Source of the DNA: an uncultured euryarchaeote
GTDB taxonomy: Archaea > Thermoplasmatota > Poseidoniia > Poseidoniales > Thalassarchaeaceae
Length of the DNA stretch: 64,000 bases
Reading direction: 5' to 3'
NCBI GenBank assembly: GCA_937911265.1
Contig: CALDRG010000064.1
Location: 8,350-72,349, forward strand
A program made the position numbers and the translations under genes. The notes beneath the pieces are model-generated. The model was not told where the DNA came from. It worked only from the letters and a program-made list of their open reading frames with translations, and did not search any database. This document shows positions 14,732 to 43,370 of the stretch, in pieces. Numbering within the stretch: the first letter of the stretch is position 1; each line of letters opens with the position of its first letter.

Positions 14732-14744
14732 GGGGGTGCCATGA

Positions 14745-16130: not shown

Positions 16131-16161
16131 TTAGGGCGAGAGGACGCTAAGGAGGTAGAAC

Positions 16162-16779: not shown

Positions 16780-16855
16780 AACGGCAAACTTCGTTCGCCG
16801 TGCACACGTACGAGGGGTCAAAACGGACCTCCCCGACCCAACCCAAGGGGTCACC

Positions 16856-19270: not shown

Positions 19271-20220
19271 TGCGGATAGCCATCCTCGGCGTTGGCTCGA
19301 TAGGTGGAGTCCTTCTGGGTGCCTTGTCCGACACCGACGCCGAACTGGTGGCTGTAGCCCGAGGAGAGAACTCTAGGATACTGTCACAGATGGGATTGGT
19401 TCTGCACACACCAGAAGGCCCGATTGAAGTGATTCCTCCCGAGCGTTTTGTCACTGTGGACAGCGAAGCTGGCCCACTGCCCACGGATCTACTAGGGTCG
19501 TGCGATGCCGCGCTCATTTGTGGCAAGGCCGACTCAACCCCTATACTTGCGCAAATTGCTGAGGAGTTGCTTAGTGAGGAGGGCATCGCCGCCAGCCTAC
19601 AGAACGGCATGGGGCACGCCGAGACCCTCGCTCACAGGCTGAGTAGAGCCAGAACTCTCGGGGGGACGACCACTCACGGAGCCTGGCGCAGTGAGGCCGG
19701 GACCCACTGGGTCGGCCGTGGCAACATCAGGTTGGGAAGATTCGACAACTCCCCTCCCGAAGGGGCCGCAGCGATGCTGATGACCAAATTGGACGAGGCT
19801 CACCTCGAACCCGATTGGTCGGAAAATATCCAGCGCACTATCTGGACGAAGATCTTACTCAATGTTGCTATTAATCCAGTGTGCTCGATAGCTGGCGTGC
19901 GCAACGGAGCGCTGCTTGAGGTACCCGAGCTCTGGGATCAGGCGTTCTCCGCGATGTTAGAGGCAGCAACGGTTGCCGCCGCCAGCGGAGTTGACCTCTC
20001 AGATCTCGACCTTGAGGGCACTCTGCGCACTGTAGCAGGGGCGACTGCACAGAACCGTTGCTCGATGTTGCAGGACGTGATGGCAGGACGTCAAACGGAG
20101 ATCGACGAGCTGTGCGGGGCAGTAGTATCGCTGGGAGAGTCAGTCGGCGTCCCTACTCCAAGGAACGCCATGCTCCACGCACTGGTCCGGGGCATTCATA
20201 TCTCATCCAGTTTCGAGTAA
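19270..20220 (+). CDS. panE: 2-dehydropantoate 2-reductase (ketopantoate reductase)
   Basis: MRIAILGVGSIGG Rossmann N-terminus, QNG, TKILLNV, CSMLQD...GRQTEID motifs; start taken at the internal ATG overlapping the upstream stop (TAATG). Confidence 0.85.
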   Translation: MRIAILGVGSIGGVLLGALSDTDAELVAVARGENSRILSQMGLVLHTPEGPIEVIPPERFVTVDSEAGPLPTDLLGSCDAALICGKADSTPILAQIAEELLSEEGIAASLQNGMGHAETLAHRLSRARTLGGTTTHGAWRSEAGTHWVGRGNIRLGRFDNSPPEGAAAMLMTKLDEAHLEPDWSENIQRTIWTKILLNVAINPVCSIAGVRNGALLEVPELWDQAFSAMLEAATVAAASGVDLSDLDLEGTLRTVAGATAQNRCSMLQDVMAGRQTEIDELCGAVVSLGESVGVPTPRNAMLHALVRGIHISSSFE

Positions 20221-20352: not shown

Positions 20353-23300
20353 ATGCATCTACTTCGAATGGAACTTGAGAACTTCAAATCATTCGGTGGA
20401 GAAATCACGATTCCGCTTGAAGAGGGATTTACAGCGATAACCGGGCCGAACGGCTCGGGCAAGTCGAACACCTTGGATGCTCTTGAGTTTGTTCTCGGTC
20501 CAAAGTCCACGAAGTCATTGAGGGCAGCCAACGTAACCCAGTTGATATTCAATGGTGGTAAACGAGGCAGGCCCGCCAAACACATGTCGGCCAGCCTAGT
20601 ATTCAGCAACACTCCCGAGCCCGGCAGCCGCAGGAGACTGAGGATCGATACCGACGAGGTCCGATTCACTAGGGCCGTCAGGCTAGGTAGGAAGGGAGCT
20701 CCAATCTCTTCCTACCGAATCAACGACGAACCTTCCTCGGCAACCGAAATGCGTCGGGTCCTAGCCGAGGCGGGCCTGCGGGCTGGTGGCTACAACATCG
20801 TGAAGCAGGGCGATGTCACTAGCCTCGCCACGATGACCCCTCACAAGAGAAGAGGGATTCTCGAGGACGTCGCTGGCGTCACCGCCTACGACGATGAGAT
20901 CCGCCGAGCCAACACCCAGCGCAAACATGTCGAGAACAATATCGAGACCATCGACCTGTTTGAGATCGAACAGAAGAAGCGCCTCAAGGACCTCGGTAAG
21001 GAACGCGAGCAGGCGCTCAAGTTCAAAGATATCAAGGAGGAGTTGGACACGGCTAGGACCTCGCTGCATCAGTCGAGGCACAGGAACCGCTCGGACGAGG
21101 TACATCTGTTAGGAGAGGAACGCTCTCGCTACCGAGATGATATCGATACCATCGGTGGCAGAGTCACCGAGGGCAACAGAGGACTACTCGCGCTCGACGA
21201 GGAGCTGGTGAAGGTAGATTCCGACATCAACGAGATTGCTGGTGGTGAAGCCCGAGACCTGTTCGAGCAGATTCGCCAGTACCAGATCGACATTGAGACC
21301 GGAGGCGATAGGATTGGCGATCAGCGCAGCATTATCGAGGATGCCGAAGAGGAGGCCGAGGAGTTCCGTGCAGAGCTACAGGGAGCCCAGTCGGCCCACG
21401 AACAGGCCGAAGACGCACTTACGAACGCCAGCCAAGACCTCGAAGAGGCCAAGGAGTCACTCAAGAGCGCCTCCGAGGACGAGCGGGATGCAAGGGATGC
21501 GATTGAGTCCGGAGATAAGGCAGGTCGAGGACTCAAGCGAATCCTCGGTCAAGCCACCGAAGCCGTGGACGAGGCCCATACGATTCATGCTGAGGCTAGA
21601 CTGAACGCCGATTTGGCTGAACAGACCTCCCAGATAGCCTCGAGCAAACTGGCTGACCTCGAAGAGGAGTTTGAGGAAGCCACGATGGTTCGCGACGACC
21701 TCGAACTGGTCGGCGAAGACCTGCAGAGCGACCAACCTACAACTGACCGCAGTTCTCTGGCTGAAGAGCTCCGCCGAATGCAGAGGCAGGAAGCCGAGCT
21801 GGCAGGAGACAGGGACCGCTCGGAGATTAGAGTCAGGGATGCCGAGAGAGATTTGAACAAGGCCAGAGCGCGCCAGGAGGGTCGCGCCAACAACCATGGC
21901 TCAGCAGTGACGCTGGCAGCACTCGTCAAACTCCGCCAGAGCGGCGATGTGAAAGGGATACTCGGCTCTCTTGGAGAGCTCACTGCACCGAAGGACCCGT
22001 CACACGAGGAAGCGCTGGCCAACGCCTTCGGAGCCGGACTTAGGAGCATCGTCGTCACAGATGACGATGTCGCAGCCAAGTGTATTTCTTGGCTAAGGCA
22101 GAATGGAGGCGGCAGAGCCACATTCCTACCTCTCAACAAACTCAGCACCAGTCGCCCAGGGGGGCGCTCCCTGATTGTCGCAAACAATCCCGGAGTTGTC
22201 GGTTTTACTCACGATCTGTTGGAGTACGACTCGGAGATTGAAACTGCTGTCAGGTACGCCGGGCGTAACACACTCCTAGTCGACACAATGGAAGTAGCTC
22301 GACGTAACATGGGCGGCGTTAGGCTGGTCACTCTCGATGGCTCGATAATCGAGAGTTCTGGAGCGATGACCGGGGGCTCAGCCCTCAAGTCTAATCGAAA
22401 CGCATTCGGAGGTGGCTCGATCTCGTCGAGCCTAGACAGACTGGAAGCAGCGGTCGAGGAGGCCAATCTCATCTATTCCACTGTCGAGGCCGCTCTCAGG
22501 GAGTTGCGAGGAAATCAGCAGAACCTGCGCGACAGGATACACGGCCTTGATGATGGCGACCACTCGCTACAGTTGCGCAATTGGAAGGCGGACATCGAGC
22601 GGGCCCAGAGGGATGTCGACGATATCCGCAAGAAGGTGGTAGCATCTAATGGTGAGTTCAAGCGTTACGAGGTGGCCCAAGCCACTGCTAGTTCTGCGGC
22701 CGATGAGGCTAGGGAAAATTACGAGTCTGCAGTCGCCGATAGGGCCGCAGCCGCTCAGGCCTTGCAGGACCACGCCCCCGATCACCTATCGCAGAAGCTC
22801 CGAGAGGCAGAGCGAACAATGACCGAGGCCGAGCGTACTCGGCTAGCCTCTGAATCAGCAATTTCCAATGGTAACGAGCGCTTGCAAATCCTATCCGGGC
22901 GCGTCGCGGACATCCAGCGTCAAATTGACAAGAAGCTCAAGGCCATGTCTGAGGCAGAGTCAAAGATCTCCGAGTTGGGGAAGGCTATTGTTGAGGCCAA
23001 GAACAACCTTGAGGACCTCAGGGAGCAGGCTTCCCAGTTCGATGAGGAGCAGCAGGCGCTCAAGGAAAGGAGGGACGAGATTGTCGACGAGCGAGCAAGT
23101 CTGCGAGCATCAGTTGAGACCCTGTCTCAGAAGAAGGAGATCCTAACGTCTCGTATTGATGACCTGAATATCCAAATCCAGCAGAAGCGCGAAGCGGTTG
23201 ACGAGATAGTCGCCGAACTTGAGGGCGCCGGGATAGCAATCCCGTTGCCAGAAGCGCATCTGCCGACTGTGGCCGAGGCGGAGAAGAGCGTGCAGGGGCT

Positions 23301-24273
23301 CGAGCGCCGCCTCGGTCATCTCGGCGATGTGAACATGCTCGCCATAGAGCAGTACGACAGCACTGCCGAACGCATCGCCGGGCTGGTGGAGGACGGCAAG
23401 TTGCTACGCAGCCGGCGCAAACATCTCGTCTCGATAGCCGTGCAACTTGAGGACGAACGCAAGACTAGGCTGATGGCTGTATTCAATCACGTCAACAGCA
23501 ACTTCTCGAGAGTCTACAAGATACTGCAGCCGGCAGGTAGCGGAAAACTCCAGATGGAGAATCCGAAGAATCCCTTCGATGGCGGTTTGGAGATGCAGTG
23601 TGTTCCTCCGGGCAAGAGCAAGAATACCCGTCGTAGCCAGTTGTCCGGCGGCGAGAAGTCGATGGCCGCACTAGCTCTGATATTCGCCATCCAAGACTAC
23701 GAGCCCAGTCCGTTCTACTACCTTGACGAAGTCGACCAGAACCTCGACCCATTCAACGCCGAGCGCATCGCGACCCTGTGCAGGATGCGCAGTCAGCGAG
23801 CACAGTTCCTCATGGTGACGCTGCGCAAGGTCAGCCTCACTCTCGCTGATCATCACATCGGCGTCACCCACGCCGGTGATGGGCGCAGTCGCCTAATCAC
23901 CGACTTCGACAGGGCAGCTGCCCTCGAGATGGGAGAGGAATTTGAGGCCGAGAACAACGCCCAGGCGTTGGCCAAGGCCGAGCGCGAGGCGATGCCCGAA
24001 CTGCCAGACCCGGAAGACATGCCTCGAGCTCCCGAGTCACTTGGCACCCCGAAGAGCCTGGGCGGCGTTGCCGAACGAGCTGGTGTGGATATCGAAGCCA
24101 CTGGGGCTGAGGAAAAGATCGAGGCAGAAGGTGGCACAATCGAATCTCTGCGTGATCGTACTGAGGACTGGACCGAGGATATAGAGGAGCGCGAAGAGAT
24201 TGAGCAGAATCTTGTAGAATCGGAGAACGAAGATGAGACTGATACAGAGGCTGAGCAGAAGGAGGCGGAATGA
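20353..24273 (+). CDS. smc: Chromosome segregation protein SMC
   Basis: 1306 aa; N-terminal Walker A GPNGSGKSN, long coiled coils, hinge, C-terminal signature LSGGEKS and Walker B YYLDEVD. Confidence 0.95.
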   Translation: MHLLRMELENFKSFGGEITIPLEEGFTAITGPNGSGKSNTLDALEFVLGPKSTKSLRAANVTQLIFNGGKRGRPAKHMSASLVFSNTPEPGSRRRLRIDTDEVRFTRAVRLGRKGAPISSYRINDEPSSATEMRRVLAEAGLRAGGYNIVKQGDVTSLATMTPHKRRGILEDVAGVTAYDDEIRRANTQRKHVENNIETIDLFEIEQKKRLKDLGKEREQALKFKDIKEELDTARTSLHQSRHRNRSDEVHLLGEERSRYRDDIDTIGGRVTEGNRGLLALDEELVKVDSDINEIAGGEARDLFEQIRQYQIDIETGGDRIGDQRSIIEDAEEEAEEFRAELQGAQSAHEQAEDALTNASQDLEEAKESLKSASEDERDARDAIESGDKAGRGLKRILGQATEAVDEAHTIHAEARLNADLAEQTSQIASSKLADLEEEFEEATMVRDDLELVGEDLQSDQPTTDRSSLAEELRRMQRQEAELAGDRDRSEIRVRDAERDLNKARARQEGRANNHGSAVTLAALVKLRQSGDVKGILGSLGELTAPKDPSHEEALANAFGAGLRSIVVTDDDVAAKCISWLRQNGGGRATFLPLNKLSTSRPGGRSLIVANNPGVVGFTHDLLEYDSEIETAVRYAGRNTLLVDTMEVARRNMGGVRLVTLDGSIIESSGAMTGGSALKSNRNAFGGGSISSSLDRLEAAVEEANLIYSTVEAALRELRGNQQNLRDRIHGLDDGDHSLQLRNWKADIERAQRDVDDIRKKVVASNGEFKRYEVAQATASSAADEARENYESAVADRAAAAQALQDHAPDHLSQKLREAERTMTEAERTRLASESAISNGNERLQILSGRVADIQRQIDKKLKAMSEAESKISELGKAIVEAKNNLEDLREQASQFDEEQQALKERRDEIVDERASLRASVETLSQKKEILTSRIDDLNIQIQQKREAVDEIVAELEGAGIAIPLPEAHLPTVAEAEKSVQGLERRLGHLGDVNMLAIEQYDSTAERIAGLVEDGKLLRSRRKHLVSIAVQLEDERKTRLMAVFNHVNSNFSRVYKILQPAGSGKLQMENPKNPFDGGLEMQCVPPGKSKNTRRSQLSGGEKSMAALALIFAIQDYEPSPFYYLDEVDQNLDPFNAERIATLCRMRSQRAQFLMVTLRKVSLTLADHHIGVTHAGDGRSRLITDFDRAAALEMGEEFEAENNAQALAKAEREAMPELPDPEDMPRAPESLGTPKSLGGVAERAGVDIEATGAEEKIEAEGGTIESLRDRTEDWTEDIEEREEIEQNLVESENEDETDTEAEQKEAE

Positions 24274-25280
24274 TGACGGTGTTCGATGGCCAGACCATGC
24301 GCGACGACATCGTAGCGAGGATGCTGGGCAGCGATGCCGACCTCGAGACCAGTAGATATCTAGACAGACTGGTCGAACTCGCAACCCTCGAGGAGGCCGA
24401 GCATCAGTTCCTGATTGATCCATTTGACCGCTCGGTGGCGCTCGTTCTGCAACTGTTCCAGTCTAGCGACCTCGATCCGTGGGATGTCGACCTCAGCTCT
24501 TTCCTTGAGATGTTCAACGAGAGGATCAAAGAGTCCGAGAACATCGACCTGCCGACCTGTGGTAGGCTTGTCAGGATGGCTTGGTGCATCCTGCGAGGAC
24601 AGGCCTCTACTCTGTTGGAGAGGCAGGAGCATGCCTTCGACTTCGAAGAAGAAGAAGTCTGGGACTTCGACGGAGGCTGGGAGTCAGAGTTCGATGACGC
24701 CGACTACAATTTCTCTCTTGGAGTCCTGACCGGTGCGGCCGACGAGGCCCTGCCTCAGATGTTCGAAGGCAGGATACACCGCGACGAGAGCCGGCCAGTT
24801 ACTCTCGGCGAACTCCTGATGGGGCTGCAGGATGCAGGCAGACTCGCAGCCGAACAGCGTCTGCGTGAGGAGATAGCCAAGGAGCGCCGCGAGGCTAACA
24901 CCCGTGCTAGGGAGAGATTCAGTGGTAGCCTCCATATCGAGGACCTTGAGGGCGATCTACAGCGGACCTGGGAGTCTCTGAAGATACGATCTAGGGGGGC
25001 TGGAAAACCCATCGGACTGGGGGATTTAGTTGATGACATTTCCTCAAAGTCGGTTGAATCTGGAATACCGAAGGAGGAAGCTGAGATCGAGGCACAGGTG
25101 ACAGCACTGGTCTCGGCGCTGTTCCTGACGAACAGAGGTTATGTCGATTTGAAACAGGAGAATGGACGTAATGGCAAAATCACTCTCAAAGACCTGTGGA
25201 CAGAGGATGAGGATTTCTCAACTCTCTCTCAGAAACTCCACCCCAAGCCTATGATAGCGGAGGTCATCGCAGATGTCTGA
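24270..25280 (+). CDS. scpA: Segregation and condensation protein A (kleisin)
   Basis: Start overlaps smc stop; ScpA-like N-terminus (DLDPWDVDLSSF) and downstream position. Confidence 0.75.
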   Translation: MMTVFDGQTMRDDIVARMLGSDADLETSRYLDRLVELATLEEAEHQFLIDPFDRSVALVLQLFQSSDLDPWDVDLSSFLEMFNERIKESENIDLPTCGRLVRMAWCILRGQASTLLERQEHAFDFEEEEVWDFDGGWESEFDDADYNFSLGVLTGAADEALPQMFEGRIHRDESRPVTLGELLMGLQDAGRLAAEQRLREEIAKERREANTRARERFSGSLHIEDLEGDLQRTWESLKIRSRGAGKPIGLGDLVDDISSKSVESGIPKEEAEIEAQVTALVSALFLTNRGYVDLKQENGRNGKITLKDLWTEDEDFSTLSQKLHPKPMIAEVIADV

Positions 25281-25896
25281 GACGCCCCTTTCCACTATAC
25301 TCGAGGCGATACTGTTCGGCGCTGGCCGCTCGATGTCGGTCGAGGAGCTGTCCGAACTGCTCGAGAAACCGCGGGGCGAGGTTCAGTCAGCCTTGCGCGA
25401 GCTACAGGCCACTATTCGTCGGCGCCGCGACTCGGCGCTTCAACTCACTGACATCGCCGGTCGATGGATTTTCGAGGTTAGACCAACCCTGTCTCCTCAT
25501 CTGCCTGAGTCGTTCCGCGCCGACATCCCACAGAGGCTACTACCAGCAGCCGCATTGGTGGCCTATCATCAGCCGATGGCCCAGTCGCAGTTGGTGGATA
25601 TGCTGGGACAGAGGGCGTACGACCACGTTCGTGACCTCGCTAAAATGGGACTAATCGACCGCAGGAGGGACGGTCTGACTAGGCGCCTCACTACTACCCG
25701 CCGGTTCGCTGAATACTTTGGATGCCCCGAAGTGGAGTACCGCAAGGTCAGGACGTGGTTTAGGGAAGAGGCATCCAAGATGGGCCTGACGAGTGCTCAG
25801 TTAGCCGCTTCACTGGCTCCCGAGGAGCAACTGACGATCAACGAGTTCTCCGATGATGTCACAGTTACGGAAGAGCCTCTAGAGGCTGAGGAGTGA
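25273..25896 (+). CDS. scpB: Segregation and condensation protein B
   Basis: ILEAILFGAGRSMSVEELSELL ScpB winged-helix N-terminus; translationally coupled to scpA. Confidence 0.8.
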   Translation: MSETPLSTILEAILFGAGRSMSVEELSELLEKPRGEVQSALRELQATIRRRRDSALQLTDIAGRWIFEVRPTLSPHLPESFRADIPQRLLPAAALVAYHQPMAQSQLVDMLGQRAYDHVRDLAKMGLIDRRRDGLTRRLTTTRRFAEYFGCPEVEYRKVRTWFREEASKMGLTSAQLAASLAPEEQLTINEFSDDVTVTEEPLEAEE

Positions 25897-25897
25897 A

Positions 25898-27253
25898 TCA
25901 CTCCGCCCTCAGATTCTCCAGTTCCTCTTCGACAGCCTTCTGGGTGATTCTGTCGCCTTGCTCTCGTAGTCGGACTGCGACGATATCAATCTCTGATCCC
26001 TCTGCACCAGCAGTCACTGCCATGTTCCGGACATGGAGCTTCATGTGTCCGGCTTGGATACCTACTGTCGCCAACGCCCTCAGGGCACCGAGGTTCTGGG
26101 CCAACCCCGCTGCCGCCATCACCTTGGCGAGCTCGTCGGCGGAAGTGATTCCGAGCAGAGCCACGTTGGCTTGCGCTGCAGGGTGCACTCTCACTGCACC
26201 TCCCACTAGCCCCACAGCCATCGGTAGTTCAATCGAGCCCACTAGATTGCCTTCGCCATCCTTCTCCCAGTGAGTCAGCGAGCCATAGGTCCTCTCGTGT
26301 GCGGCGAAACTGTGAGCACCGGACTCCACAGCCCGCCAGTCCTGTCCACAGGCGAGGGCTATGGGAGATATCGCATTCATGATGCCCTTGTTGTGAGTAG
26401 TGGCGCGAAACGGGTCGGCTTTGGCGAAGTGATATGCTTGCAGTATTCCCTCTATGACTTCGGAGCCCTGCTCCGCATTGCCCTTGTCCGACAATTCCTC
26501 AGGGCTGAATACAGCACTCACCCTAGCCAGTCTGTGCACGGCAAGATTGCTGATTATGCGCAGTATAACTGTCCCACCTGTCATACTCTCTATCTTTGGG
26601 GCGATGGTCTCGGCCATGGTGTTGACAGCGTTTGCACCCATGGCGTCTCTACAGTCCACCAGGATGTGGACAATGACCATCGGTCCGGAGTCAGTTTCTA
26701 TTATTCTGACTTGAATATCCCGACATCCGCCACCGAATTTGACTAGAATCGGGTCGACAGCATTGCAAGATTCGACTAATTCGGCGCTTTTTCCTAGGAT
26801 TGAAGCCTTTGCAACTTCTGGATCATCGCAACCCACAACTTGGATTTGCCCAATCATCACTGGATCATCGTTGTCAGAGGTGAATCCACCATTGGCATGG
26901 CACCTCTTTGCCATATTGCTGGCGGCAGCCACCACACTTGGTTCCTCAAGGACGAATGGTATCAGATAGTGCTCACCATCGATGATGAAGTTGGTAGCGA
27001 CTCCGATGGGCAGCGAGTATGTCCCGATTACATTCTCAATCATCCTATCTGCTGAATCTTCGGAAAGCTCACCTGAAGAGGACCATGCCTCTACTTGCTC
27101 TGGTGTGAGTTTGGCTGTGTGAGCCAGCACCTCCCTGCGTTCTGAAACAGAGAGCTTGTAGAATCCTTCGAGTCGGCTGCTGTCGACGGGCATCTGTATC
27201 AGTTGAAGCCCGGAGTAATTGGCTTCTAACTGTTTGCGATTGACCTTGTTCAT
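25898..27253 (-). CDS. mvaA: Hydroxymethylglutaryl-CoA reductase, class II (NADPH/NADH)
   Basis: ENVIGTYSLPIGVATNFIIDGEHYLIPFVLEEPSVVAAAS and DAMGANAVNT, characteristic of class II HMGR. Confidence 0.9.
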   Translation of the reverse strand: MNKVNRKQLEANYSGLQLIQMPVDSSRLEGFYKLSVSERREVLAHTAKLTPEQVEAWSSSGELSEDSADRMIENVIGTYSLPIGVATNFIIDGEHYLIPFVLEEPSVVAAASNMAKRCHANGGFTSDNDDPVMIGQIQVVGCDDPEVAKASILGKSAELVESCNAVDPILVKFGGGCRDIQVRIIETDSGPMVIVHILVDCRDAMGANAVNTMAETIAPKIESMTGGTVILRIISNLAVHRLARVSAVFSPEELSDKGNAEQGSEVIEGILQAYHFAKADPFRATTHNKGIMNAISPIALACGQDWRAVESGAHSFAAHERTYGSLTHWEKDGEGNLVGSIELPMAVGLVGGAVRVHPAAQANVALLGITSADELAKVMAAAGLAQNLGALRALATVGIQAGHMKLHVRNMAVTAGAEGSEIDIVAVRLREQGDRITQKAVEEELENLRAE

Positions 27254-27294
27254 GTTCGCGATTTAGCAGTATAGTTCAGAAAACACTTCCTAAA

Positions 27295-27467
27295 AATGCG
27301 TTAATCTACCCATTAACGGGTTGTTAACGCATCAATAAAGCGTTAGTGAAGCGTTAACATCGAATTGTCACATTCGTAGCACTGGGTGAAAAGGGCCCAA
27401 CTAAATCCTCTCGGAAAAACGCGAGAATGCGTTAAATCACCATATGAGAAGCGTGAGGATGCGTGAA
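27295..27467. repeat. Array of at least 6 (A/T)(A/T)GCGTTAA motifs in both orientations in the divergent mvaA / orc1-like intergenic region
   Basis: ATGCGTTAA at 27295 and 27426; inverted copy TTAACGCAT at 27323; AAGCGTTAG at 27338; AAGCGTTAA at 27348; degenerate AAGCGTGAGG and ATGCGTGAAT at 27448-27467; 37-bp dyad ATGCGTTAA...TTAACGCAT at 27295-27331. Confidence 0.8.
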
Positions 27468-27475
27468 TATTAAGA

Positions 27476-29287
27476 ATGAGAGAGCTCGCTGCTCGAGCAA
27501 TGATGGGAGAGGCAGTTTCTCTACTTGACCTACCTCCCCTCAGGGGAAATCCCTTCGAACTCAGACCAATCGAGTCGACGCGAGCCCAGGACATAGTCGG
27601 GCGCGATTCACTGATGACCCGCTTGAGAGAGCATATCATATCCGAATCTCCGAGGATGGTGCTCTTAGTTGGGGGACGAGGCAGCGGTAGAACCTCTCTG
27701 GTAAACGCCCTGTCTTCTCAGGTCAGTAAGAAGTTCGTCGGCCAGTTCTGGCCTCGGGACGAGGCCGTCAGCTCCGTGATGAATGAGATCGCTGTCCATT
27801 TCATCGGTCACGAAGTTCCTCCGTCCACTGGGCAGATGTGTGAGCGCCTGATTGAAACGCTCGAGCAGAGTACAGGACCACTCTCCCTAATTGCCCTTGA
27901 TTACCCCTCAAATACCCCTATGAATGACTTCCTAGCGCGCATGACGCCACTGTTGCAGAGGCTCAAGGCACTGGTTCTGGTGACGCTGACACCGGCACAA
28001 CTGACCTCCTTGGACGAAGAGGTGCTCGATGTGTTCGATTCCCCCGAGCATCTTGATGGCCTATCGGAGAGTCAGATTCAGAAGTTGGCCGACAATCTCG
28101 TGCGCAGGAAGGCCCGTGAGCGCTGGATCATCAACCCCGATATCTTGACTGCCATCCACGATAGCACAGCAGGAAATCCACGCGAGGTGGTGCGCTTGTG
28201 CCGGGCGCTCATTGATGAAAGGCGAGGTGTCGGCTCCGAGGGTACACTCGAGAGGCTGGTCGGATGGCAGAGGATCGTGCAGGAAGAGGACGAAGATCCT
28301 CCAGAGGCACACTCCTCCCTCACCGAGTTAGAATCAGAACCCGTTCCCGAGTCAGTCGAAGATGGTGAGGACTGGGACGTCGAGCCCGATGACCTGTGGG
28401 AGGATGAATCCGAACCCGAAGGCCAATCCGAAGAGTTCGATTGGGACAAGGAACTCCCTGAACCAGACGATATCTGGGACGATGGGCCCGTGCCCGTGCC
28501 CGTGCCCGAGCCCGAGCCCGAGTCGCAGTCGCCCCCTCCAGAGGAGAACCAGGAGACGCTGGATTCCTTCCTCTTCGCCGAAGAGGGCACTGAACATCTG
28601 GTACAGCCTCGTCACGCCGGCGGACTCAGTGGCTTAGCCGACAGATCACAGAGAATCAGCGCAGCCATGCCCGAGGGTCTGGACGAGACTCCGATTACGG
28701 TCGCCGAGAATCGGCCGCAATTGACACCGGCTCCTATCAGGCCACCTCCTAGGCCGAATCCCGAACCTGCATTCGTTACCGACGCCAAGCCAGACACCTC
28801 GGTGCTACCCACTCAGGACCAACCGGTGATGGCTGCCGAGGGTGCCCTTTGGACTGTGGACTCTAGTCTCGGCTCATCCCTGCCTGTCTTAGATGCGGAG
28901 CCAAAGGCCAGTCCCGAACCAGTCTTCGACATCGATCACTCCCCTCCTCCTGCCGTAGTGCCGGAGCCAGTGTTTGAGGAGCCGGAACCTGCTCCTCCCC
29001 AAATCCCGATTCCCCTCGGACCAGCTTGGGATGTTGACGAGCCTCTCAACCATGCCCGAGTCGCGACAGTTTCTGATGCTGAGCGTACCGTGCTGGCAGC
29101 AGCCAAGGCACGCGAGATCTCACCTTCGGACCCGGAACTACAGGCCTTTCTCGAGGTCGGTAGACCTCGACTATCGCAGATTTTCAATGGACTGCGGAAA
29201 GCTGGCCTGCTCTCGGTCAGGAAGCAGGGCAGGACGAGACTGTTCAAACTAAGCAGAGCAGCCTCGTTGGAACTCGAGATGACATAG
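27476..29287 (+). CDS. Orc1/Cdc6-like AAA+ paralogue with degenerate Walker A, long acidic Pro-rich linker and C-terminal winged-helix-like domain
   Basis: NPFELRP...IVGRD...LLVGGRGSGRTSL (Arg in place of the Walker A Lys), Walker B-like LIALDY, sensor-2-like GNPREVVRLCRAL; about 230-aa low-complexity D/E/P linker; C-terminal LSQIFNGLRKAGLLSVRKQGRTRLFKL. Confidence 0.55.
   Translation: MRELAARAMMGEAVSLLDLPPLRGNPFELRPIESTRAQDIVGRDSLMTRLREHIISESPRMVLLVGGRGSGRTSLVNALSSQVSKKFVGQFWPRDEAVSSVMNEIAVHFIGHEVPPSTGQMCERLIETLEQSTGPLSLIALDYPSNTPMNDFLARMTPLLQRLKALVLVTLTPAQLTSLDEEVLDVFDSPEHLDGLSESQIQKLADNLVRRKARERWIINPDILTAIHDSTAGNPREVVRLCRALIDERRGVGSEGTLERLVGWQRIVQEEDEDPPEAHSSLTELESEPVPESVEDGEDWDVEPDDLWEDESEPEGQSEEFDWDKELPEPDDIWDDGPVPVPVPEPEPESQSPPPEENQETLDSFLFAEEGTEHLVQPRHAGGLSGLADRSQRISAAMPEGLDETPITVAENRPQLTPAPIRPPPRPNPEPAFVTDAKPDTSVLPTQDQPVMAAEGALWTVDSSLGSSLPVLDAEPKASPEPVFDIDHSPPPAVVPEPVFEEPEPAPPQIPIPLGPAWDVDEPLNHARVATVSDAERTVLAAAKAREISPSDPELQAFLEVGRPRLSQIFNGLRKAGLLSVRKQGRTRLFKLSRAASLELEMT
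28486..28521 (+). repeat. Tandem hexanucleotide repeat (GCCCGT x3, GCCCGA x3) encoding PVPVPVPEPEPE inside the Orc1-like gene
   Basis: Read directly from the sequence. Confidence 0.9.
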
Positions 29288-29295: not shown

Positions 29296-29586
29296 ATGTC
29301 CGGCTCAGTAGTAACCAGAGATAAGGTTGAGAGGTATCTGGCCCTGACGACTGAGGCTAGGTCGAAGGCGACCCCCTGCGCGGAAGGTGTGGAGGACGAG
29401 GCCCGATTGACCTCGATGCTGAGGATGTGCGATGACTACGCCGCTGATGCCAGGCATTTCATGGAGTCCGATGATTTGGTTCGCGCCTTCGGGGCCATCA
29501 ACTACTCGCACGCTTGGTTGGATGCCGCCGTTAGAATCGGTCTACTGGACGGCCATGGAGATGACCGGTTGTTCACGCTGCCCTAG
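29296..29586 (+). CDS. Small conserved hypothetical protein
   Basis: 96-aa helical ORF with good coding character directly after the Orc1-like gene; no family assignable. Confidence 0.4.
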   Translation: MSGSVVTRDKVERYLALTTEARSKATPCAEGVEDEARLTSMLRMCDDYAADARHFMESDDLVRAFGAINYSHAWLDAAVRIGLLDGHGDDRLFTLP

Positions 29587-29951
29587 GTCTCGACCAGCCT
29601 GAGGAACCGGCCCGATGCGACTTCGATGTAGGATCCTCCAGAGGATATCAATCTCTCCTTAAGGTCCCGGTCGACTGTCAGTACCGGCCATCTTCTCGAA
29701 CCAGAGAGAGTTACCAGCATCTCGTCCGGATGAGACATCCCATCAAGGTCGAGAACTCTCTCGGAACGGCTCTCGAGCAAACTGAGGAGGAGTCCCTTCC
29801 TCTGTTGCGACAACAGATCTAATTCGCGATGCACACTTTCGAGCACCATGAGTTCGGCTTGGCCAACCACTCCCTTCATCGCATCGTCGATATTCAACTT
29901 TGCATCCATCAGTGCGGCCCAGCCGCATGCGTCTACGAGGACGCCGACCAT
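29583..29951 (-). CDS. PIN-domain protein (VapC/Nob1-like nuclease fold)
   Basis: MVGVLVDACGWAALMD ... E ... TVDRDL acidic-residue pattern of a PIN domain; conserved position upstream of aIF2-gamma; start taken at the internal Met to avoid an 86-nt overlap. Confidence 0.5.
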   Translation of the reverse strand: MVGVLVDACGWAALMDAKLNIDDAMKGVVGQAELMVLESVHRELDLLSQQRKGLLLSLLESRSERVLDLDGMSHPDEMLVTLSGSRRWPVLTVDRDLKERLISSGGSYIEVASGRFLRLVET

Positions 29952-29955
29952 CCAA

Positions 29956-31263
29956 TCACCCTGCAATCGAGCCGTGGCCGATGAGCCGCCAGCGCGAGCC
30001 GATGCGACGGGACAGCGTGATTCGACTACCTGACTTGGCACAAATTGGCAACCTCAGTTGCAACGTCGCCGATCGACCTTTGATCGATGAGACTGTTCCG
30101 ACGCTGGTGGCGGTGGCAGAGTTCACCATAAGCATCTCATTGGGCTGCAGCGGGCGAACCGATTTGGCATCCCCTTCTCCGGCCGAGGCCATGTTCTCAA
30201 GCAGATCGAGATCGAGATCTAGGGCCTCCCATATTGGTGGCAGTTCACCCTCGCGAGCCATGACCTGTCCAGAGAGCTCATCGGCCTTGGTGGAGACAGG
30301 GTCCATCGGAGTAGCGATGCCGCACAATCCTCCTGCGTGAACGGATTGCAGGTCAAGCCCACCTCCCTTGACACTCTGAATGGTAGTTCGAATTGGCTCC
30401 CAAGTCGTCTTTCCGCCTGTTTGCACCCTGCGGCCAGGGGCTATCAATATCGAATCTCCCACGCTGAAGGAACCCTCGACGATGCTGCCGCCGATGATTC
30501 CGCCCTGCAGTTTCTCAGGGCGCGAGCCCGGACGATTCGTGTCGAACGAGCGAGCGACGTACATCAGACCTGACTCACCAGAGGGCCTGTCTGGAGTGGG
30601 AATGACGTCTTCGATGGCCTGTATCAAGACGTCTAGGTTGACGTCGTGGTGGGCCGAGACCGGGATGATTGGAGCAGACTCGGCTATCGTGCCCTTCAGG
30701 AAGTCTCTAATCTCCTCGTGGGATTCGACAGCCCTCTCTCGACTCACTATGTCGATCTTGTTCTGTACCACTACTATGTTCTCTATTCCTGCTATCTGCA
30801 ATGCGGCCAGATGTTCACGGGTCTGAGGCTGCGGGCACTTCTCAGTAGCAGAAATGAGTAGCATCGCCCCATCCATAATCGAGGAGCCTGAAATCATCAC
30901 AGCCATCAGGGTCTCGTGACCCGGGGCGTCAACAAACGAGACCACACGTAGAAGCTCGCCATCCGAGTCCTCGTTGCCATCAGGGTGCTTACCTCTAGCG
31001 TAGTACCTACCGTCAGAGGTCCTGTAGAACGCTGTGTCGGCGTAGCCTAACTTGATGCTGATGCCGCGCTTCATTTCCTCCGAGTGGGTATCGGTCCAGA
31101 CTCCGGAGAGCGCTTGAGTGAGAGTGGTCTTACCGTGATCGACGTGACCGACCATGCCGATGTTGACTACAGGTTGACTGGGAAGACTCTGAACCAGTTT
31201 AATTCCCCCTGCCAACTCACTCCTCTTCTCCAGAGGGCTCCTCGACAGGTGCGGCCTCCTCAA
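29956..31263 (-). CDS. eif2g: Translation initiation factor 2 subunit gamma
   Basis: G1 motif NIGMVGHVDHGKTTL, Zn-knuckle region, EF-Tu-like domains II and III; N-terminal 30 aa of the ORF are probably not translated. Confidence 0.9.
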   Translation of the reverse strand: MRRPHLSRSPLEKRSELAGGIKLVQSLPSQPVVNIGMVGHVDHGKTTLTQALSGVWTDTHSEEMKRGISIKLGYADTAFYRTSDGRYYARGKHPDGNEDSDGELLRVVSFVDAPGHETLMAVMISGSSIMDGAMLLISATEKCPQPQTREHLAALQIAGIENIVVVQNKIDIVSRERAVESHEEIRDFLKGTIAESAPIIPVSAHHDVNLDVLIQAIEDVIPTPDRPSGESGLMYVARSFDTNRPGSRPEKLQGGIIGGSIVEGSFSVGDSILIAPGRRVQTGGKTTWEPIRTTIQSVKGGGLDLQSVHAGGLCGIATPMDPVSTKADELSGQVMAREGELPPIWEALDLDLDLLENMASAGEGDAKSVRPLQPNEMLMVNSATATSVGTVSSIKGRSATLQLRLPICAKSGSRITLSRRIGSRWRLIGHGSIAG

Positions 31264-31714: not shown

Positions 31715-31789
31715 CTCATCACCTCGGACGGCCTCCCGACTAAAGGCCCCTATAAGAGCGGTTCGGAAGCGCCATAGGCGCTTGCTGAA

Positions 31790-32992
31790 TCAACTGATTT
31801 CCTTCTCAATTCGACTCTCCAGAGCCGCAGGTGCGGTATTGGTCATGGTGATGTGCTGCGTCCTCCCCCTACCCACCGTCGCGTTCGCAGTCCGCGACTC
31901 AATCAGCCCCAATGTCTCGAGCTCCTTGAGGTGCTTCCAGAAGGTGGTGTAACTGCGGGGTTTGTCCCCGTTCTCCTCGCAGACTAGATTGTACAACTTC
32001 TGGGCATCACCGCTGGAGATCTCGTCCACCCTCTTGAGGCGCCTGCAGATACCGAGGAGGACCAGTTTCTGATGCTTGCCCAGATTGTCGACCTGACTTG
32101 GTTCGACCGAAGCACCCCGTAAGGTGCTGGGTCGTACATCCTCGATTAAGACGTCTCCTCTGCCATCCATCTCGGCGCGTCGAATTGCTGCTTCCAGCAG
32201 TTCGATGGCGAGACGCGCGTCACCTGTCTCAGCGGCGAACCTACCGATCTTGGACAGAGTGTCATCGCCCACCGATCCCGGTTTGCAGGCCTCCTCGTAG
32301 CGCTGCCTAGCGATACCCGTGAGCGCGCGCTCGTCGTATCCGCCCAGCGCCATCATGCTGCTCTCGCCGAGCCGAGAGATAATGGCTGGTTCGAACAACC
32401 TGATTAGGGAAACATCTTGACTCACCAGTATCATCGAGAGCGAGCCCTGCTGGTCCTGACCCTCATCGATTCGGAGCAGTTTGTAGATTAGGTCGCCCTT
32501 GTCGTTGCGAATTAGCACATCTACTTCGTCGAGGGTTAGCAGGAGATGGGTCTTGTGTACCTTGAGGTTACGACGAATAGATTGGATGATCTCGCTCGAG
32601 CTGAAGCCCCGTTCTGGGTGTCCAGAGTCGAGTGAGCGAGCAATCTCCTGCAACACCTGTGAGGCAGTTGGGTGGTTGCGGCAGTTGACATGAGCGAGAA
32701 CTATCTTCCTGCGTCCGTCCAGCATTCGCTGAAGATCTTCTCCGAAGCGACGTGTCATCACCGTCTTGCCCGAACCTACTGGTCCTGTAATGACTGCCCT
32801 GCCACTGACTCCGTCCCCTTCCATTCCACTGAACATCGAAGCGAGCTCACCGAGTTCCTCATCGCGACCGACCAATGCAGGCGGCGTCCAATCGAACGAG
32901 AAAAACATCCCGTTCAGCAGGACCTTGCCCGCTCCTATTCTGTCTAGGTAGTCGACCATTATGTGACTCGTGCTCACATCGTTATTAGACAT
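31790..32992 (-). CDS. cdc6: Orc1/Cdc6 replication initiator
   Basis: LVGRDEEL, Walker A GPVGSGKT, Walker B LTLDEVD, sensor-2 GDARLAIELL, C-terminal winged helix. Confidence 0.9.
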   Translation of the reverse strand: MSNNDVSTSHIMVDYLDRIGAGKVLLNGMFFSFDWTPPALVGRDEELGELASMFSGMEGDGVSGRAVITGPVGSGKTVMTRRFGEDLQRMLDGRRKIVLAHVNCRNHPTASQVLQEIARSLDSGHPERGFSSSEIIQSIRRNLKVHKTHLLLTLDEVDVLIRNDKGDLIYKLLRIDEGQDQQGSLSMILVSQDVSLIRLFEPAIISRLGESSMMALGGYDERALTGIARQRYEEACKPGSVGDDTLSKIGRFAAETGDARLAIELLEAAIRRAEMDGRGDVLIEDVRPSTLRGASVEPSQVDNLGKHQKLVLLGICRRLKRVDEISSGDAQKLYNLVCEENGDKPRSYTTFWKHLKELETLGLIESRTANATVGRGRTQHITMTNTAPAALESRIEKEIS

Positions 32993-33040
32993 ATTTGGAG
33001 CAGCGCGCGCACATATGCCTGTCTGCAGTGTGCACGTGAG

Positions 33041-41236: not shown

Positions 41237-41245
41237 TCTGATTCC

Positions 41246-43370
<2,125 letters not shown>

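What the first reader, a model, noticed from the sequence alone, without database searches (positions are those of the whole stretch)
27254..29287. Divergent Orc1/Cdc6-like paralogue (Walker A Lys to Arg, 230-aa acidic Pro-rich linker, novel C-terminal wH-like domain) beside a GCGTTAA repeat array, 4.3 kb from the canonical cdc6
The 603-aa protein begins like archaeal Orc1/Cdc6 (NPF...IVGRD..., P-loop context LLVGG-R-GSG-R-TSL, Walker B-like LIALDY, sensor-2-like GNPREVVRLCRAL). Three things depart from Orc1/Cdc6. The invariant Walker A lysine is arginine (GSGRT), which in AAA+ proteins usually abolishes or strongly alters ATP hydrolysis. The canonical Orc1 winged helix is replaced by about 230 residues of D/E/P-rich low complexity followed by a different basic wH-like segment. 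The gene starts 9 bp after a dense array of short repeats. The bona fide cdc6 at 31790-32992 has no long upstream intergenic region that could hold ORB elements. Two readings are open: this locus is the origin-proximal initiator module, with a degenerate Orc paralogue that binds the GCGTTAA repeats, or it is an Orc-derived transcription factor regulating mvaA or itself. I do not recognise this architecture as a described family.
Basis: partly seen in the sequence, partly recalled or inferred. Interest (0 to 1): 0.75.

Follow-up and report, generated by a model that had tools for sequence, protein, structure and literature searches.

The report
Degenerate AAA+ DNA-binder with conserved operator array
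Marine Group II archaea (Poseidoniales) all carry an uncharacterised protein, made of a crippled Orc1/Cdc6-like ATPase module, a long acidic disordered linker and a winged-helix DNA-binding domain, sitting next to a rigidly conserved array of GCGTTAA sites that it most likely binds to control its own promoter; a role at the replication origin is not excluded.

Summary
The ORF at 27476-29287 is a conserved gene, though the true start is probably 27500 or 27503. The GCGTTAA array at 27298-27467 is a conserved cis element. About 60 clusters at 50% identity, every named one from Poseidoniales, share the same three parts and the same gene neighbourhood: smc-scpAB, mvaA, this gene, DUF357, then PIN, eIF2-gamma, S6e and cdc6. 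Each has GCGTTAA/TTAACGC sites upstream. In most of the 79 genome loci the sites hold fixed positions phased by about 11 bp.

Walker A carries Arg, with Lys in two sublineages. The Walker B glutamate is absent from every member read, and no arginine-finger equivalent aligns. The linker is disordered, has a net charge of -53 and holds conserved short motifs. The C-domain is an ArsR/MarR-type winged helix, not a novel fold.

Best reading: a multi-site, self-regulating DNA-binding pseudo-ATPase. The origin reading stays open but is weakened by converging gene orientation and the absence of ORB elements.

The parts
27476..29287 (+). ORF of the AAA+-like / acidic linker / winged-helix protein ('X603'). 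This is the longest reading frame. The probable true start is ATG 27500 or 27503.
   Evidence: It is a conserved full-length family. Orthologues such as P0001 (594 aa) and P0026 start at the M9/M10 equivalent. The TATA-like box ends at 27475.
27530..27574 (+). N-terminal peptide LPPLRGNPFxxRPIE (residues 19-33), invariant within the close family and recognisable in all distant members.
27560..28261 (+). Degenerate AAA+ module (base plus lid), residues about 29-262.
27671..27697 (+). Walker-A-like loop GGRGSGRTS. Arg72 (AGA, 27689-27691) stands in place of the canonical Lys.
   Evidence: Arg is found in nearly all members, and Lys only in the L054/L073/L079/P0125 subclade and in P0199.
27887..27907 (+). 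Walker-B-like strand LIALDYP. Asp142 is kept, and the catalytic Glu is replaced by Tyr143.
   Evidence: aligned to LLTLDEVD of Cdc6. Every family member read has D followed by Y, F, H, I, V, A or L, never E or D.
28172..28183 (+). Sensor-2-like GNPR (Arg236).
   Evidence: Aligned to GDAR of Cdc6. It is conserved in most members and lost in the L076-78 lineage.
28262..28996 (+). Disordered acidic, Pro-rich linker (residues 263-507). Conserved short motifs include WDVEPDDLW (300-308), GGLSGLxxRxxR (383-394), MPxxxDETPIT (398-408) and EGALWTVD (455-463).
   Evidence: pLDDT is below 50 in the full-length AF2 model. Composition: 25.7% D/E, 18% P, net charge -53. The motifs recur in distant members.
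29033..29275 (+). C-terminal ArsR/MarR-type winged helix-turn-helix (residues about 520-600). The recognition helix RLSQIFNGLRKAG spans 29162-29200.
   Evidence: AF2 pLDDT 84-92 with an H-H-H-strand-strand topology. NCBIfam HTH_metalloreg gives E 7e-5. The PDB profile search hits HlyU at E 2e-4. The motif SPSD..RLSQ is invariant in the 79-locus set and, with small variation, in distant members.
27298..27357 (.). Distal cluster of five sites: S1 GCGTTAA 27298-304 (+), S2 27313-19 (-, imperfect), S3 27324-30 (-), S4 GCGTTAg 27340-46 (+), S5 27351-57 (+). S2-S3 and S4-S5 are each 11 bp apart.
   Evidence: The same order, orientation and spacing recur in most of the 79 Poseidoniales loci.
27358..27428 (.). 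Fixed-length spacer of 71 bp, relatively AT-rich, with a weakly conserved aaatcg...tACTG block.
   Evidence: The spacer is 70-71 bp in 54 of 71 loci, with variants of 60, 68-69 and 82 bp. Mean GC is 0.32 against 0.50 for the loci.
27429..27467 (+). Proximal sites S6 GCGTTAA 27429-35, S7 GCGTGAg 27451-57 and S8 GCGTGAa 27461-67. Start-to-start spacings are 22 and 10 bp.
27466..27475 (+). TATA-like box AATATTAAGA. It immediately follows S8 and lies about 25-30 nt upstream of ATG 27500.
   Evidence: The block GCGTGAAYATTAWGWA is conserved across loci. Assigning it as a TATA box is inference.
25898..27253 (-). Divergent neighbour mvaA (HMG-CoA reductase), a possible second regulatory target.
   Evidence: Pfam PF00368 at E 2e-108. 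It is divergent from X603 in every locus that reaches far enough upstream.
29296..29586 (+). DUF357 gene, 9 bp downstream of X603 on the same strand. It is probably co-transcribed.
   Evidence: Pfam PF04010 at E 3e-18. Adjacency is conserved. Co-transcription is inference.

Best explanation
X603 is a Poseidoniales-wide, site-specific DNA-binding protein built on a pseudo-ATPase.

Proposed mechanism:
1. The C-terminal ArsR/MarR-type winged helix recognises the core (A/T)GCGTTAA.
2. Eight such sites lie in the mvaA-X603 intergenic region. They are phased at about one helical turn (11, 11, 77-78, 22 and 10 bp), so bound protomers sit on one face of the DNA.
3. The N-terminal AAA+ module has the Orc1/Cdc6-like initiator-clade fold but no longer hydrolyses ATP. 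Walker A Lys is Arg, the Walker B Glu is lost, and no arginine finger aligns. It serves as the oligomerisation or nucleotide-sensing scaffold that makes binding cooperative and bridges the distal (S1-S5) and proximal (S6-S8) clusters across the fixed 70-71 bp spacer.
4. S7 and S8 abut the gene's own TATA-like box, so occupancy controls transcription of the X603-DUF357 operon (autoregulation) and possibly the divergent mvaA.
5. The 245-residue linker (net charge -53) carries conserved Trp/acidic and GGFSGL..R motifs. It tethers the two domains and probably recruits a partner or auto-inhibits DNA binding.

Shown: gene, domains, degenerate motifs, disorder, site array, phasing, and co-conservation of gene and sites.

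Inferred: that X603 is the binder, that binding is cooperative, the direction of regulation, and the role of the linker.
For: - The GCGTTAA/TTAACGC array lies upstream of the gene in about 76 of 79 genome loci and almost nowhere else in each roughly 18-kb locus.
- Site positions relative to the promoter-proximal anchor are fixed at -161>, -146<, -135<, -119>, -108> and -31>, plus GCGTGA copies near -10 and +1.
- The spacer is 70-71 bp in 54 of 71 loci. Variants of 60 and 82 bp differ by about one helical turn.
- Lineages whose N-domain is far more diverged (profile E 1e-31 to 1e-60), all in the same synteny, still have GCGTTA(A)/TAACGC clusters upstream, some as full palindromes TTAACGCGTTAA.
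- The recognition-helix motif R.RLSQ.xN is kept throughout, matching the invariance of the site core.
- The winged-helix fold is predicted with pLDDT 84-92, with ArsR/HlyU similarity.
- The AAA+ fold is supported.
- The loss of catalytic residues is family-wide, whereas the nearest outgroup proteins keep GKT and D[DE].
- The proximal sites abut a conserved TATA-like box about 25-30 nt before the consensus start codon.
- Precedent exists for an Orc1-type AAA+/winged-helix protein acting as a transcription regulator: Sulfolobus Orc1-2 (PMC6061795, PMC9738581).
Against: - No binding data exist, and another factor could bind the sites.
- No second target was found in 64 kb of window or about 1.2 Mb of flanks. 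A regulon beyond its own promoter is therefore unproven.
- Pure autoregulation seems a thin reason for order-wide conservation of such an elaborate array.
- In the distant lineages (L200, L201) the proximal sites lie about 30 nt upstream of the TATA-like box, not on it, and they are inverted.
- The distance from S1 to the mvaA start is variable, so control of mvaA is uncertain.
- The fixed AT-rich spacer flanked by site clusters near cdc6 is also what an origin would look like.
Confidence: 0.5

Rival explanations
1. Replicator-initiator pair. The array, with site clusters flanking a fixed AT-rich spacer, is the Poseidoniales chromosomal origin or part of it. X603 is a lineage-specific origin-binding factor that marks the site and works with the canonical Cdc6 encoded 2.5 kb away, in the way that archaeal origins are typically paired with an adjacent initiator gene.
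For: - The AAA+ fold is closest to Cdc6/Orc1, and the alignment with Cdc6 is colinear.
- The gene sits directly beside its sites.
- The spacer has fixed length and is AT-rich: GC 0.32 against 0.50 on average, and as low as 0.14-0.24 in AT-rich lineages.
- The mvaA-X603 region (median 286 bp) is the only sizeable conserved intergenic region near cdc6. The cdc6 flanks are only about 82 and 58 bp.
- No canonical ORB (TTCCAsTGGAAA) occurs in the window or in the 79 loci.
- The neighbourhood holds ATP synthase, smc-scpAB, cdc6 and gyrBA. This resembles the origin-proximal region described for the related Methanomassiliicoccales (PMC4153887).
- In distant lineages the sites flanking the spacer are inverted, as ORBs are around a DNA-unwinding element.
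Against: - Genes on both sides are transcribed towards this locus: all on + from 8.5 to 25.9 kb and all on - from 29.6 to 43.2 kb. Cumulative GC skew peaks here. Archaeal origins are associated with diverging, co-directional gene orientation (bioRxiv 10.1101/2023.11.15.567178).
- In this window the spacer is only modestly AT-rich (0.46 against 0.57).
- The ATPase motifs needed for a normal initiator cycle are lost.
- The nearest sequence relatives are ATPase-winged-helix proteins, not Orc1.
- The sites look nothing like ORBs.
- In the window's lineage the sites flanking the spacer are in direct, not inverted, orientation.
Confidence: 0.2
2. Centromere-like or condensin-loading site. X603 bound to the array nucleates a higher-order complex that positions or loads SMC-ScpAB, encoded immediately upstream. 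This would be functionally analogous to ParB-parS in bacteria or to plasmid partition centromeres placed upstream of their own operon.
For: - Synteny with smc-scpA-scpB holds in every locus that reaches far enough upstream.
- The site array is clustered and helically phased.
- The protein has an oligomerisation-type NTPase module and a partner-binding disordered region with conserved motifs.
- The cluster is unique within 64 kb.
Against: - The evidence is purely circumstantial.
- mvaA lies between the array and smc on the opposite strand.
- General synteny in this region is very high, so adjacency carries little weight.
- The protein has no similarity to ParB, SegB, AspA or ParR.
- The array spans only about 170 bp.
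Confidence: 0.07
3. The sites belong to another regulator, for example a dedicated mvaA / isoprenoid-lipid regulator encoded elsewhere. X603 merely shares the intergenic region. Its own target, or a function that does not depend on DNA sequence, lies elsewhere.
For: - No experimental link connects protein and sites.
- The mvaA adjacency is as conserved as the X603 adjacency.
- S1 is followed on the minus strand by a T-rich box that could be the mvaA TATA.
Against: - The array keeps a fixed register with the X603 promoter-proximal anchor, not with the mvaA start.
- The site core and the X603 recognition helix are both near-invariant over the same deep divergence.
- An autoregulatory arrangement is the rule for winged-helix regulators (my own knowledge).
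Confidence: 0.1

Closest known systems
Archaeal Orc1/Cdc6 initiators, and the non-initiator paralogue Orc1-2 of Sulfolobales (a DNA-damage transcription regulator)
   Same: - N-terminal AAA+ base plus lid, followed by a C-terminal winged-helix DNA-binding domain.
- Colinear profile alignment covers the VGRD box, P-loop, Walker B strand and sensor 2.
- The model has two helices between strands beta2 and beta3, as in the initiator-specific motif (inference).
- Orc1-2 shows that such a protein can be a sequence-specific transcription regulator (PMC6061795, PMC9738581).
   Different: - It fails the Orc1/Cdc6 HMMs: TIGR02928 scores 12 bits against 181, and there is no Cdc6_C or Cdc6_lid hit.
- Walker A Lys is Arg, the Walker B Glu is lost, and no arginine finger aligns.
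- The winged helix is ArsR/MarR-type.
- A 245-residue acidic disordered linker separates the two domains.
- The sites (GCGTTAA) are unlike ORB elements or the Orc1-2 ANTTTC motif (the latter from my own knowledge).
Roughly 400-aa 'NPF'-type AAA_16/AAA_22/ATPase_2 ATPases fused to a C-terminal ArsR/MarR winged helix. These are uncharacterised metagenomic proteins such as P0239, P0254, P0275 and P0287, with weak hits to the Sll1717-family P-loop ATPase and the XrtA/PEP-CTERM-associated ATPase.
   Same: - They are the nearest sequence relatives outside the family in the exhaustive search (E 1e-10 to 1e-8).
- They share the N-terminal NPF motif, the GNPR-type sensor 2 and the C-terminal R(S/P)RLSQILN recognition helix.
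   Different: - They keep GxGKT and hhhhD[DE], so they are presumably active ATPases.
- They have no long linker.
- They have no known link to the conserved Poseidoniales locus or to GCGTTAA arrays.
- Their functions are also unknown.
ArsR/SmtB-family winged-helix regulators, for example HlyU and BigR
   Same: The C-terminal 70-80 residues match by profile (HlyU 4k2e at E 2e-4; HTH_metalloreg at E 7e-5). The predicted three-helix-plus-wing fold also matches. Like these regulators, the gene has binding sites in its own promoter (my own knowledge).
   Different: Scores are below the family cutoffs. The domain is the tail of a 600-aa multidomain protein. No metal- or redox-sensing motifs were examined. 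The array has eight phased sites where a single dyad operator would be typical.
DnaA with DnaA-box arrays (bacterial initiator and autoregulator)
   Different: There is no sequence relationship beyond the AAA+ fold. DnaA is an active ATPase with a different DNA-binding domain. The comparison is an analogy only.

Membership tests
Orc1/Cdc6 (archaeal ORC1-type replication protein) | Family profile HMM at or above the curated cutoff (TIGR02928 / PRK00411) | tested here: not met
   TIGR02928 gives E 0.05 and 12.4 bits against a cutoff of 181.3, covering the P-loop stretch only. Pfam ORC-CDC6-like gives E 0.1. The window's true cdc6 scores 225 bits.
Orc1/Cdc6 (archaeal ORC1-type replication protein) | AAA+ base plus lid fold of the initiator clade | tested here: met
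Orc1/Cdc6 (archaeal ORC1-type replication protein) | Intact Walker A (GKT/S) and Walker B (DE) motifs with an arginine finger | tested here: not met
   The motifs read GSGRTS and LDYP. No Arg aligns with the Cdc6 SRLG box.
Orc1/Cdc6 (archaeal ORC1-type replication protein) | C-terminal Cdc6-type winged helix (PF09079) directly following the lid | tested here: not met
   There is no PF09079 or PF22703 hit. The C-terminal domain matches ArsR/HlyU and is separated from the lid by a 245-residue disordered linker.
Orc1/Cdc6 (archaeal ORC1-type replication protein) | Binds ORB elements at a replication origin and recruits MCM | not testable with these tools
   No ORB consensus is present in the window or the loci. 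Function needs biochemistry or marker-frequency analysis.
ArsR/SmtB-MarR type winged-helix regulators | Three-helix bundle plus beta-hairpin wing, with the recognition helix in third position | tested here: met
   AF2 predicts H534-545, H553-559 and H563-575, then E579-584 and E587-592, with pLDDT 84-92.
ArsR/SmtB-MarR type winged-helix regulators | Family HMM at or above the curated cutoff | tested here: not met
   HTH_metalloreg scores 22.5 bits against a cutoff of 55. Pfam MarR_2 and HTH_Crp_2 give E 0.03-0.12. The PDB profile hit to HlyU at E 2e-4 supports homology at superfamily level only.
AAA_16/ATPase_2-type ATPase fused to a winged helix (uncharacterised assemblage) | Colinear similarity over both the ATPase and the C-terminal winged helix | tested here: met
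   The profile search returns 360-440-aa proteins at E 1e-10 to 1e-8. They have AAA_16/AAA_22/ATPase_2 plus MarR_2/HTH_5 domains and the same NPF, GNPR and RLSQ motifs.
AAA_16/ATPase_2-type ATPase fused to a winged helix (uncharacterised assemblage) | Pfam AAA_16 at or above the gathering score, with intact Walker motifs | tested here: not met
   AAA_16 scores 29.2 bits against 32.6. The Walker A Lys and Walker B acidic residue are lost, whereas the outgroup keeps them.
Archaeal chromosomal replication origin (ORB / DNA-unwinding element architecture) | ORB or mini-ORB consensus repeats | tested here: not met
   TTCCAsTGGAAAy with up to 2 mismatches gives 7 scattered hits against 3.8 expected, none in the array. 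No conserved ORB occurs in the 79 loci.
Archaeal chromosomal replication origin (ORB / DNA-unwinding element architecture) | AT-rich unwinding element flanked by initiator sites | tested here: inconclusive
   The fixed 70-71-bp spacer has GC 0.32 against 0.50 on average, but 0.46 against 0.57 in this window. The flanking sites are direct here and inverted in distant lineages.
Archaeal chromosomal replication origin (ORB / DNA-unwinding element architecture) | Skew or gene-orientation switch of the origin type (diverging) | tested here: not met
   Cumulative GC skew has its maximum near 25 kb and genes converge on the locus. Only 64 kb was available, and the skew is confounded with coding strand.

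The most novel reading that the evidence does not exclude
The mvaA-X603 intergenic array is the hitherto unidentified chromosomal replication origin of Poseidoniales, or an essential part of it. X603 is then a lineage-specific, hydrolysis-dead AAA+ origin-recognition factor. It has taken over sequence recognition from the canonical Orc1/Cdc6, whose gene lies 2.5 kb away without any ORB, and it uses its acidic motif-bearing linker to recruit Cdc6/MCM or SMC. That would be an archaeal origin defined by non-ORB iterons and a pseudo-ATPase.
Probability: 0.2. Interest if true: 0.85.

Novelty: new variant of a known kind. Interest (0 to 1): 0.6.

Why it matters
Poseidoniales (Marine Group II) are among the most abundant archaea in the surface ocean and remain uncultured. 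Almost nothing is known about their gene regulation or about how their chromosome is replicated and organised.

This locus gives a concrete, testable protein-DNA pair that is universal in the order:
- a defined 7-bp core site
- a fixed eight-site architecture
- a protein whose domains can be expressed separately

It is also a clean natural example of an AAA+ module that lost hydrolysis (Lys to Arg, no catalytic Glu) yet stays under strong purifying selection. A long acidic disordered linker bearing conserved short motifs is also unusual for a prokaryotic DNA-binding protein.

If the array proves to be the origin or a centromere, it would show a new way of specifying such sites in archaea. If it is a regulator of HMG-CoA reductase, it would be the first candidate controller of membrane-lipid synthesis in this group.

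Tried and rejected
- **Viral contig scan.** I scanned IMG/VR for TTAACGCN4TTAACGC to ask whether MGII viruses carry the array. It returned 120 or more unrelated single chance hits and was uninformative.
- **Homologue search with the N-domain alignment.** The search for homologous proteins returned only fragments of the same family. The exhaustive representative search was needed to reach outgroups.
- **Canonical ORB search.** The search in the window and the 79 loci found no cluster. The 3-kb insertions upstream of cdc6 in some lineages turned out to be a repeat-rich coding gene, not an origin.
- **GC skew.** It is confounded with coding strand in this window and cannot settle the origin question. 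Whole contigs could not be fetched.
- **Apparent large intergenic gaps.** The gaps at 8140-8497 and 49240-50927 are coding, an artefact of my greedy ORF picking.
- **Rfam and tRNA scans.** Nothing was found in the intergenic region.
- **Defence-system membership.** The only PADLOC hit is a 19-bit match to mad8. Invariant core-genome synteny also argues against a mobile defence island.
- **AFDB fold search.** The afdb50 library was unavailable.
- **Full-length AF2 model.** It gave no docking of linker motifs onto either domain: the linker's pLDDT is below 50.
- **PIP-box idea.** QETLDSFL at residues 365-372 is not conserved beyond the close Thalassarchaeum lineages, so I did not adopt it.


Full report
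**1. What is in the sequence**

The ORF at 27476..29287(+) encodes 603 aa. It lies 222 bp from the divergently transcribed HMG-CoA reductase gene mvaA at 25898..27253(-) (Pfam E 2e-108). A DUF357 gene follows 9 bp downstream on the same strand at 29296..29586.

The canonical cdc6 at 31790..32992(-) scores 225 bits on TIGR02928. Its flanking intergenic regions are only 75 and 48 bp.

The intergenic region holds these sites:

| Site | Position | Strand | Sequence |
|---|---|---|---|
| S1 | 27298 | + | GCGTTAA |
| S2 | 27313-19 | - | imperfect copy |
| S3 | 27324 | - | GCGTTAA |
| S4 | 27340 | + | GCGTTAg |
| S5 | 27351 | + | GCGTTAA |
| S6 | 27429 | + | GCGTTAA |
| S7 | 27451 | + | GCGTGAg |
| S8 | 27461 | + | GCGTGAa |

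Only two other exact copies exist in the 64 kb. From that call I estimate the chance of four exact copies in 222 bp at about 1e-10. Paired sites occur nowhere else in the window.

**2. The gene and the array are conserved together across an archaeal order**

A homologue search found 272 proteins, 586-716 aa among the listed hits with near-full query coverage, down to about 40% identity, mostly unnamed. A genome scan found 127 relatives. The 79 loci kept come from Poseidoniales / Thalassarchaeaceae (Marine Group II) or from MAGs labelled only Euryarchaeota, Methanobacteriota or Thermoplasmatota, apart from one labelled Acidimicrobiaceae, which is probably mis-binned. The window is 94% identical to a Guaymas MAG.

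Synteny holds in every locus that extends far enough. The order is smc-scpA-scpB, then mvaA on the opposite strand, then this gene and DUF357, then PIN, eIF2-gamma, S6e, cdc6 and dph2 on the opposite strand.

In about 76 of 79 loci the GCGTTAA/TTAACGC copies lie within 350 bp upstream of the gene and almost nowhere else in the roughly 18-kb locus.

The architecture is fixed in most loci. Core sites sit at -161>, -146<, -135<, -119>, -108> and -31> relative to a promoter-proximal anchor GCGTGAAYATTA. Degenerate copies sit near -10 and +1. The extended consensus is about tAAnaAwGCGTTAAt.

The spacer between the distal and proximal clusters is 70-71 bp in 54 of 71 loci. The main variants, 60 and 82 bp, differ by about one helical turn. 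Direct sites are thus phased in multiples of roughly 11 bp.

The exhaustive profile search found 61 cluster representatives at E below 1e-30. These include much more divergent members of 518-1012 aa. The divergent members I looked up lie in the same synteny, and one cluster is named Candidatus Poseidoniales. They still carry GCGTTA(A)/TAACGC clusters upstream, some as full palindromes TTAACGCGTTAA.

The recognition-helix motif SPSD..R.RLSQ.xN is retained throughout. A near-invariant site alongside a near-invariant recognition helix, over this depth of divergence, is the main argument that the protein binds the array. It remains an inference.

**3. Anatomy of the protein**

*N-domain (residues about 29-262).*
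- AlphaFold2 on a 15-sequence alignment gives a confident model with pLDDT 87.7 and pTM 0.82. It shows an AAA+ alpha/beta base plus a helical lid.
- Foldseek gives a similar mixed list: NB-ARC, Aeropyrum Orc1, MuB, ORC1 and RFC.
- A profile-profile comparison with the Poseidoniales Cdc6 alignment is colinear over 209 columns (probability 54%, E 1.3e-4). It pairs VGRD with VGRD, the P-loops, LIALDYP with LLTLDEVD, and GNPR with GDAR.
- The Orc1/Cdc6 HMMs fail. TIGR02928 scores 12 bits against 181, and there is no Cdc6_lid or Cdc6_C hit. Pfam AAA_16 is just below its cutoff at 29.2 against 32.6 bits.

*Catalytic motifs.*
- Walker A reads GxxGSGRTS with Arg72 in almost every member. Lys survives only in the L054/L073/L079/P0125 subclade and in P0199.
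- The Walker B Asp is kept, but the next residue is Y, F, H, I, V, A or L in every member read, never Glu or Asp.
- No Arg aligns with the Cdc6 arginine-finger box.
- The sensor-2 Arg is mostly kept.
- I infer that the module can at most bind nucleotide and no longer hydrolyses it.

*Linker (residues 263-507).* It is predicted disordered, with pLDDT below 50. Its composition is 25.7% D/E and 18% Pro, with a net charge of -53 and six Trp. Conserved islands include WDVEPDDLW, GGFSGL..R.R, MP..D.TPIT and EGALWTVD. Equivalents recur in the most distant members.

*C-domain (residues about 520-600).* It is a confident three-helix-plus-wing fold with pLDDT 84-92. It matches ArsR/HlyU-type regulators at superfamily level.

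**4. Where the family comes from**

Outside the family, the next hits in the exhaustive search (E 1e-10 to 1e-8) are 360-440-aa proteins. They combine AAA_16/AAA_22/ATPase_2 domains with a C-terminal MarR_2/HTH_5 winged helix.

They share the N-terminal NPF motif, the GNPR-type sensor 2 and, in P0239 and P0287, the recognition helix (LGVTRSRLSQILNELREKG and LGLSRPRTSQILNQLGRWG). They keep GxGKT and hhhhD[DE].

The Poseidoniales protein is therefore a derived member of an ATPase-winged-helix lineage that is itself a cousin of Orc1/Cdc6. It gained a long acidic linker and lost the catalytic residues. It is not an Orc1 whose winged helix was replaced.

Public annotations are 'hypothetical protein', 'ArsR family regulator' or a mistaken 'EcfA2'. 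My literature searches found no paper describing this family.

**5. Promoter context**

S8 is followed directly by AATATTAAGA (27466-27475). Elsewhere the conserved form is CATTATGTA. The annotated ATG at 27476 begins immediately after it. The ATGs at 27500 and 27503 lie about 25-30 nt downstream, and many orthologues start at that equivalent position.

I infer that this AT-rich box is the TATA element and that translation starts at 27500 or 27503.

The array keeps register with this anchor. Its distance to the mvaA start varies from about 45 to over 200 bp. That points to control of the X603-DUF357 operon first and leaves mvaA as a possible second target.

**6. Origin or not?**

*Features that fit an origin:*
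- an initiator-clade AAA+ protein encoded beside its own sites
- a fixed, AT-rich spacer (mean GC 0.32 against 0.50) flanked by site clusters
- the only sizeable conserved intergenic region near cdc6
- no canonical ORB anywhere nearby
- a neighbourhood of A1A0 ATP synthase, smc-scpAB, cdc6 and gyrBA that resembles the origin-proximal region of the related Methanomassiliicoccales (PMC4153887)

*Features that argue against an origin:*
- All genes from 8.5 to 25.9 kb are on the + strand and all from 29.6 to 43.2 kb are on the - strand. Transcription therefore converges on this locus, and cumulative GC skew peaks here. Archaeal skews reflect gene orientation, and origins are associated with co-directional, diverging genes (bioRxiv 10.1101/2023.11.15.567178).
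- In this window the spacer is only modestly AT-rich (0.46 against 0.57).
- The catalytic motifs are lost.
- The sites abut a promoter.

With only 64 kb in hand and no way to fetch whole contigs, I cannot settle this. I put the origin reading at about 0.2.

**7. Verdict**

The label 'divergent Orc1/Cdc6 paralogue with a novel winged helix' is only partly right.

It is an Orc1/Cdc6-like AAA+ fold in a pseudo-ATPase of a sister ATPase-winged-helix lineage, with an ordinary ArsR/MarR-type winged helix. The most likely mechanism is cooperative, helically phased occupation of eight GCGTTAA sites by an oligomerising pseudo-AAA+ protein that regulates its own operon and perhaps mvaA.

It is a new variant of a known kind and is worth experimental follow-up. 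The protein-site pair is sharply defined and universal in a globally abundant, uncultured archaeal order.

Noticed in passing
L201:8016-9068, L203:8129-9355, L204:7728-8765, L205:2026-3057, L200:6640-7686; also L076:9680-10675 and L078:6596-7594: In distant Poseidoniales lineages, an extra gene of about 345-408 aa ('Y') sits between the X603 orthologue and DUF357, with overlapping stop and start codons. It has no Pfam family. The N part has repeated G..W stretches and the C end is helical and TPR/MIT-like. It is absent from the window and from most Thalassarchaeaceae loci.
   Followed up: partly
window 43223-43418: The divergent intergenic region between gyrB and a type I dehydroquinase gene holds two related palindromes: GAGGGTTCCCTTAGGGGAACCCTC (about 43240-43263) and CTCCTTAGGGAG (about 43305-43316). 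The GTTCC..GGAAC dyad is vaguely ORB-like. This is also where the long run of minus-strand genes ends, so it could be an alternative origin candidate.
   Followed up: no
window 31715-31789 (S6e-cdc6 intergenic): The block CCCCTATAAGAGCGGTTCGGAA is invariant, or differs only at its first bases, across the Poseidoniales loci examined. Read on the minus strand it looks like the S6e BRE/TATA promoter (CTCTTATAGGGG). A hairpin follows (GGAAGCGCCATAGGCGCTT) that may terminate cdc6.
   Followed up: partly
window 32993-33040 (cdc6-dph2 intergenic): The 48-bp cdc6 upstream region carries a conserved alternating purine/pyrimidine tract (GCGCGCGCACATATGC). There is no room for ORB elements.
   Followed up: partly
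L079:13550-17110, L054:13560-17150, L021:11940-15770: Some lineages have a roughly 3-kb insertion between cdc6 and dph2. It is made of in-frame 9-, 12- and 21-nt tandem repeats, consistent with a low-complexity Lys/Glu/Ala- and Asp/Phe-rich coding gene. It is not an origin.
   Followed up: partly
window 8498-20220, 20353-25896 and 38540-43222: The window packs an A1A0 ATP synthase operon, smc-scpA-scpB and gyrA-gyrB around cdc6. Genes on both sides are transcribed towards the 26-29 kb locus. This is a strikingly ordered chromosomal neighbourhood.
   Followed up: partly
window 17589-17601 and 17642-17654: Two 13-mers with 2 mismatches to the ORB core (TTCTAGTGGACAT and CTCCAGTGGATAC) lie 53 bp apart on the same strand, inside an 804-aa ORF with no Pfam hit. 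They are probably chance matches.
   Followed up: no
window 29583-30041 and 29956-31263: The longest ORFs for the PIN_9-like gene and eIF2-gamma overlap by 86 nt. The eIF2-gamma start is probably downstream of the listed TTG.
   Followed up: no
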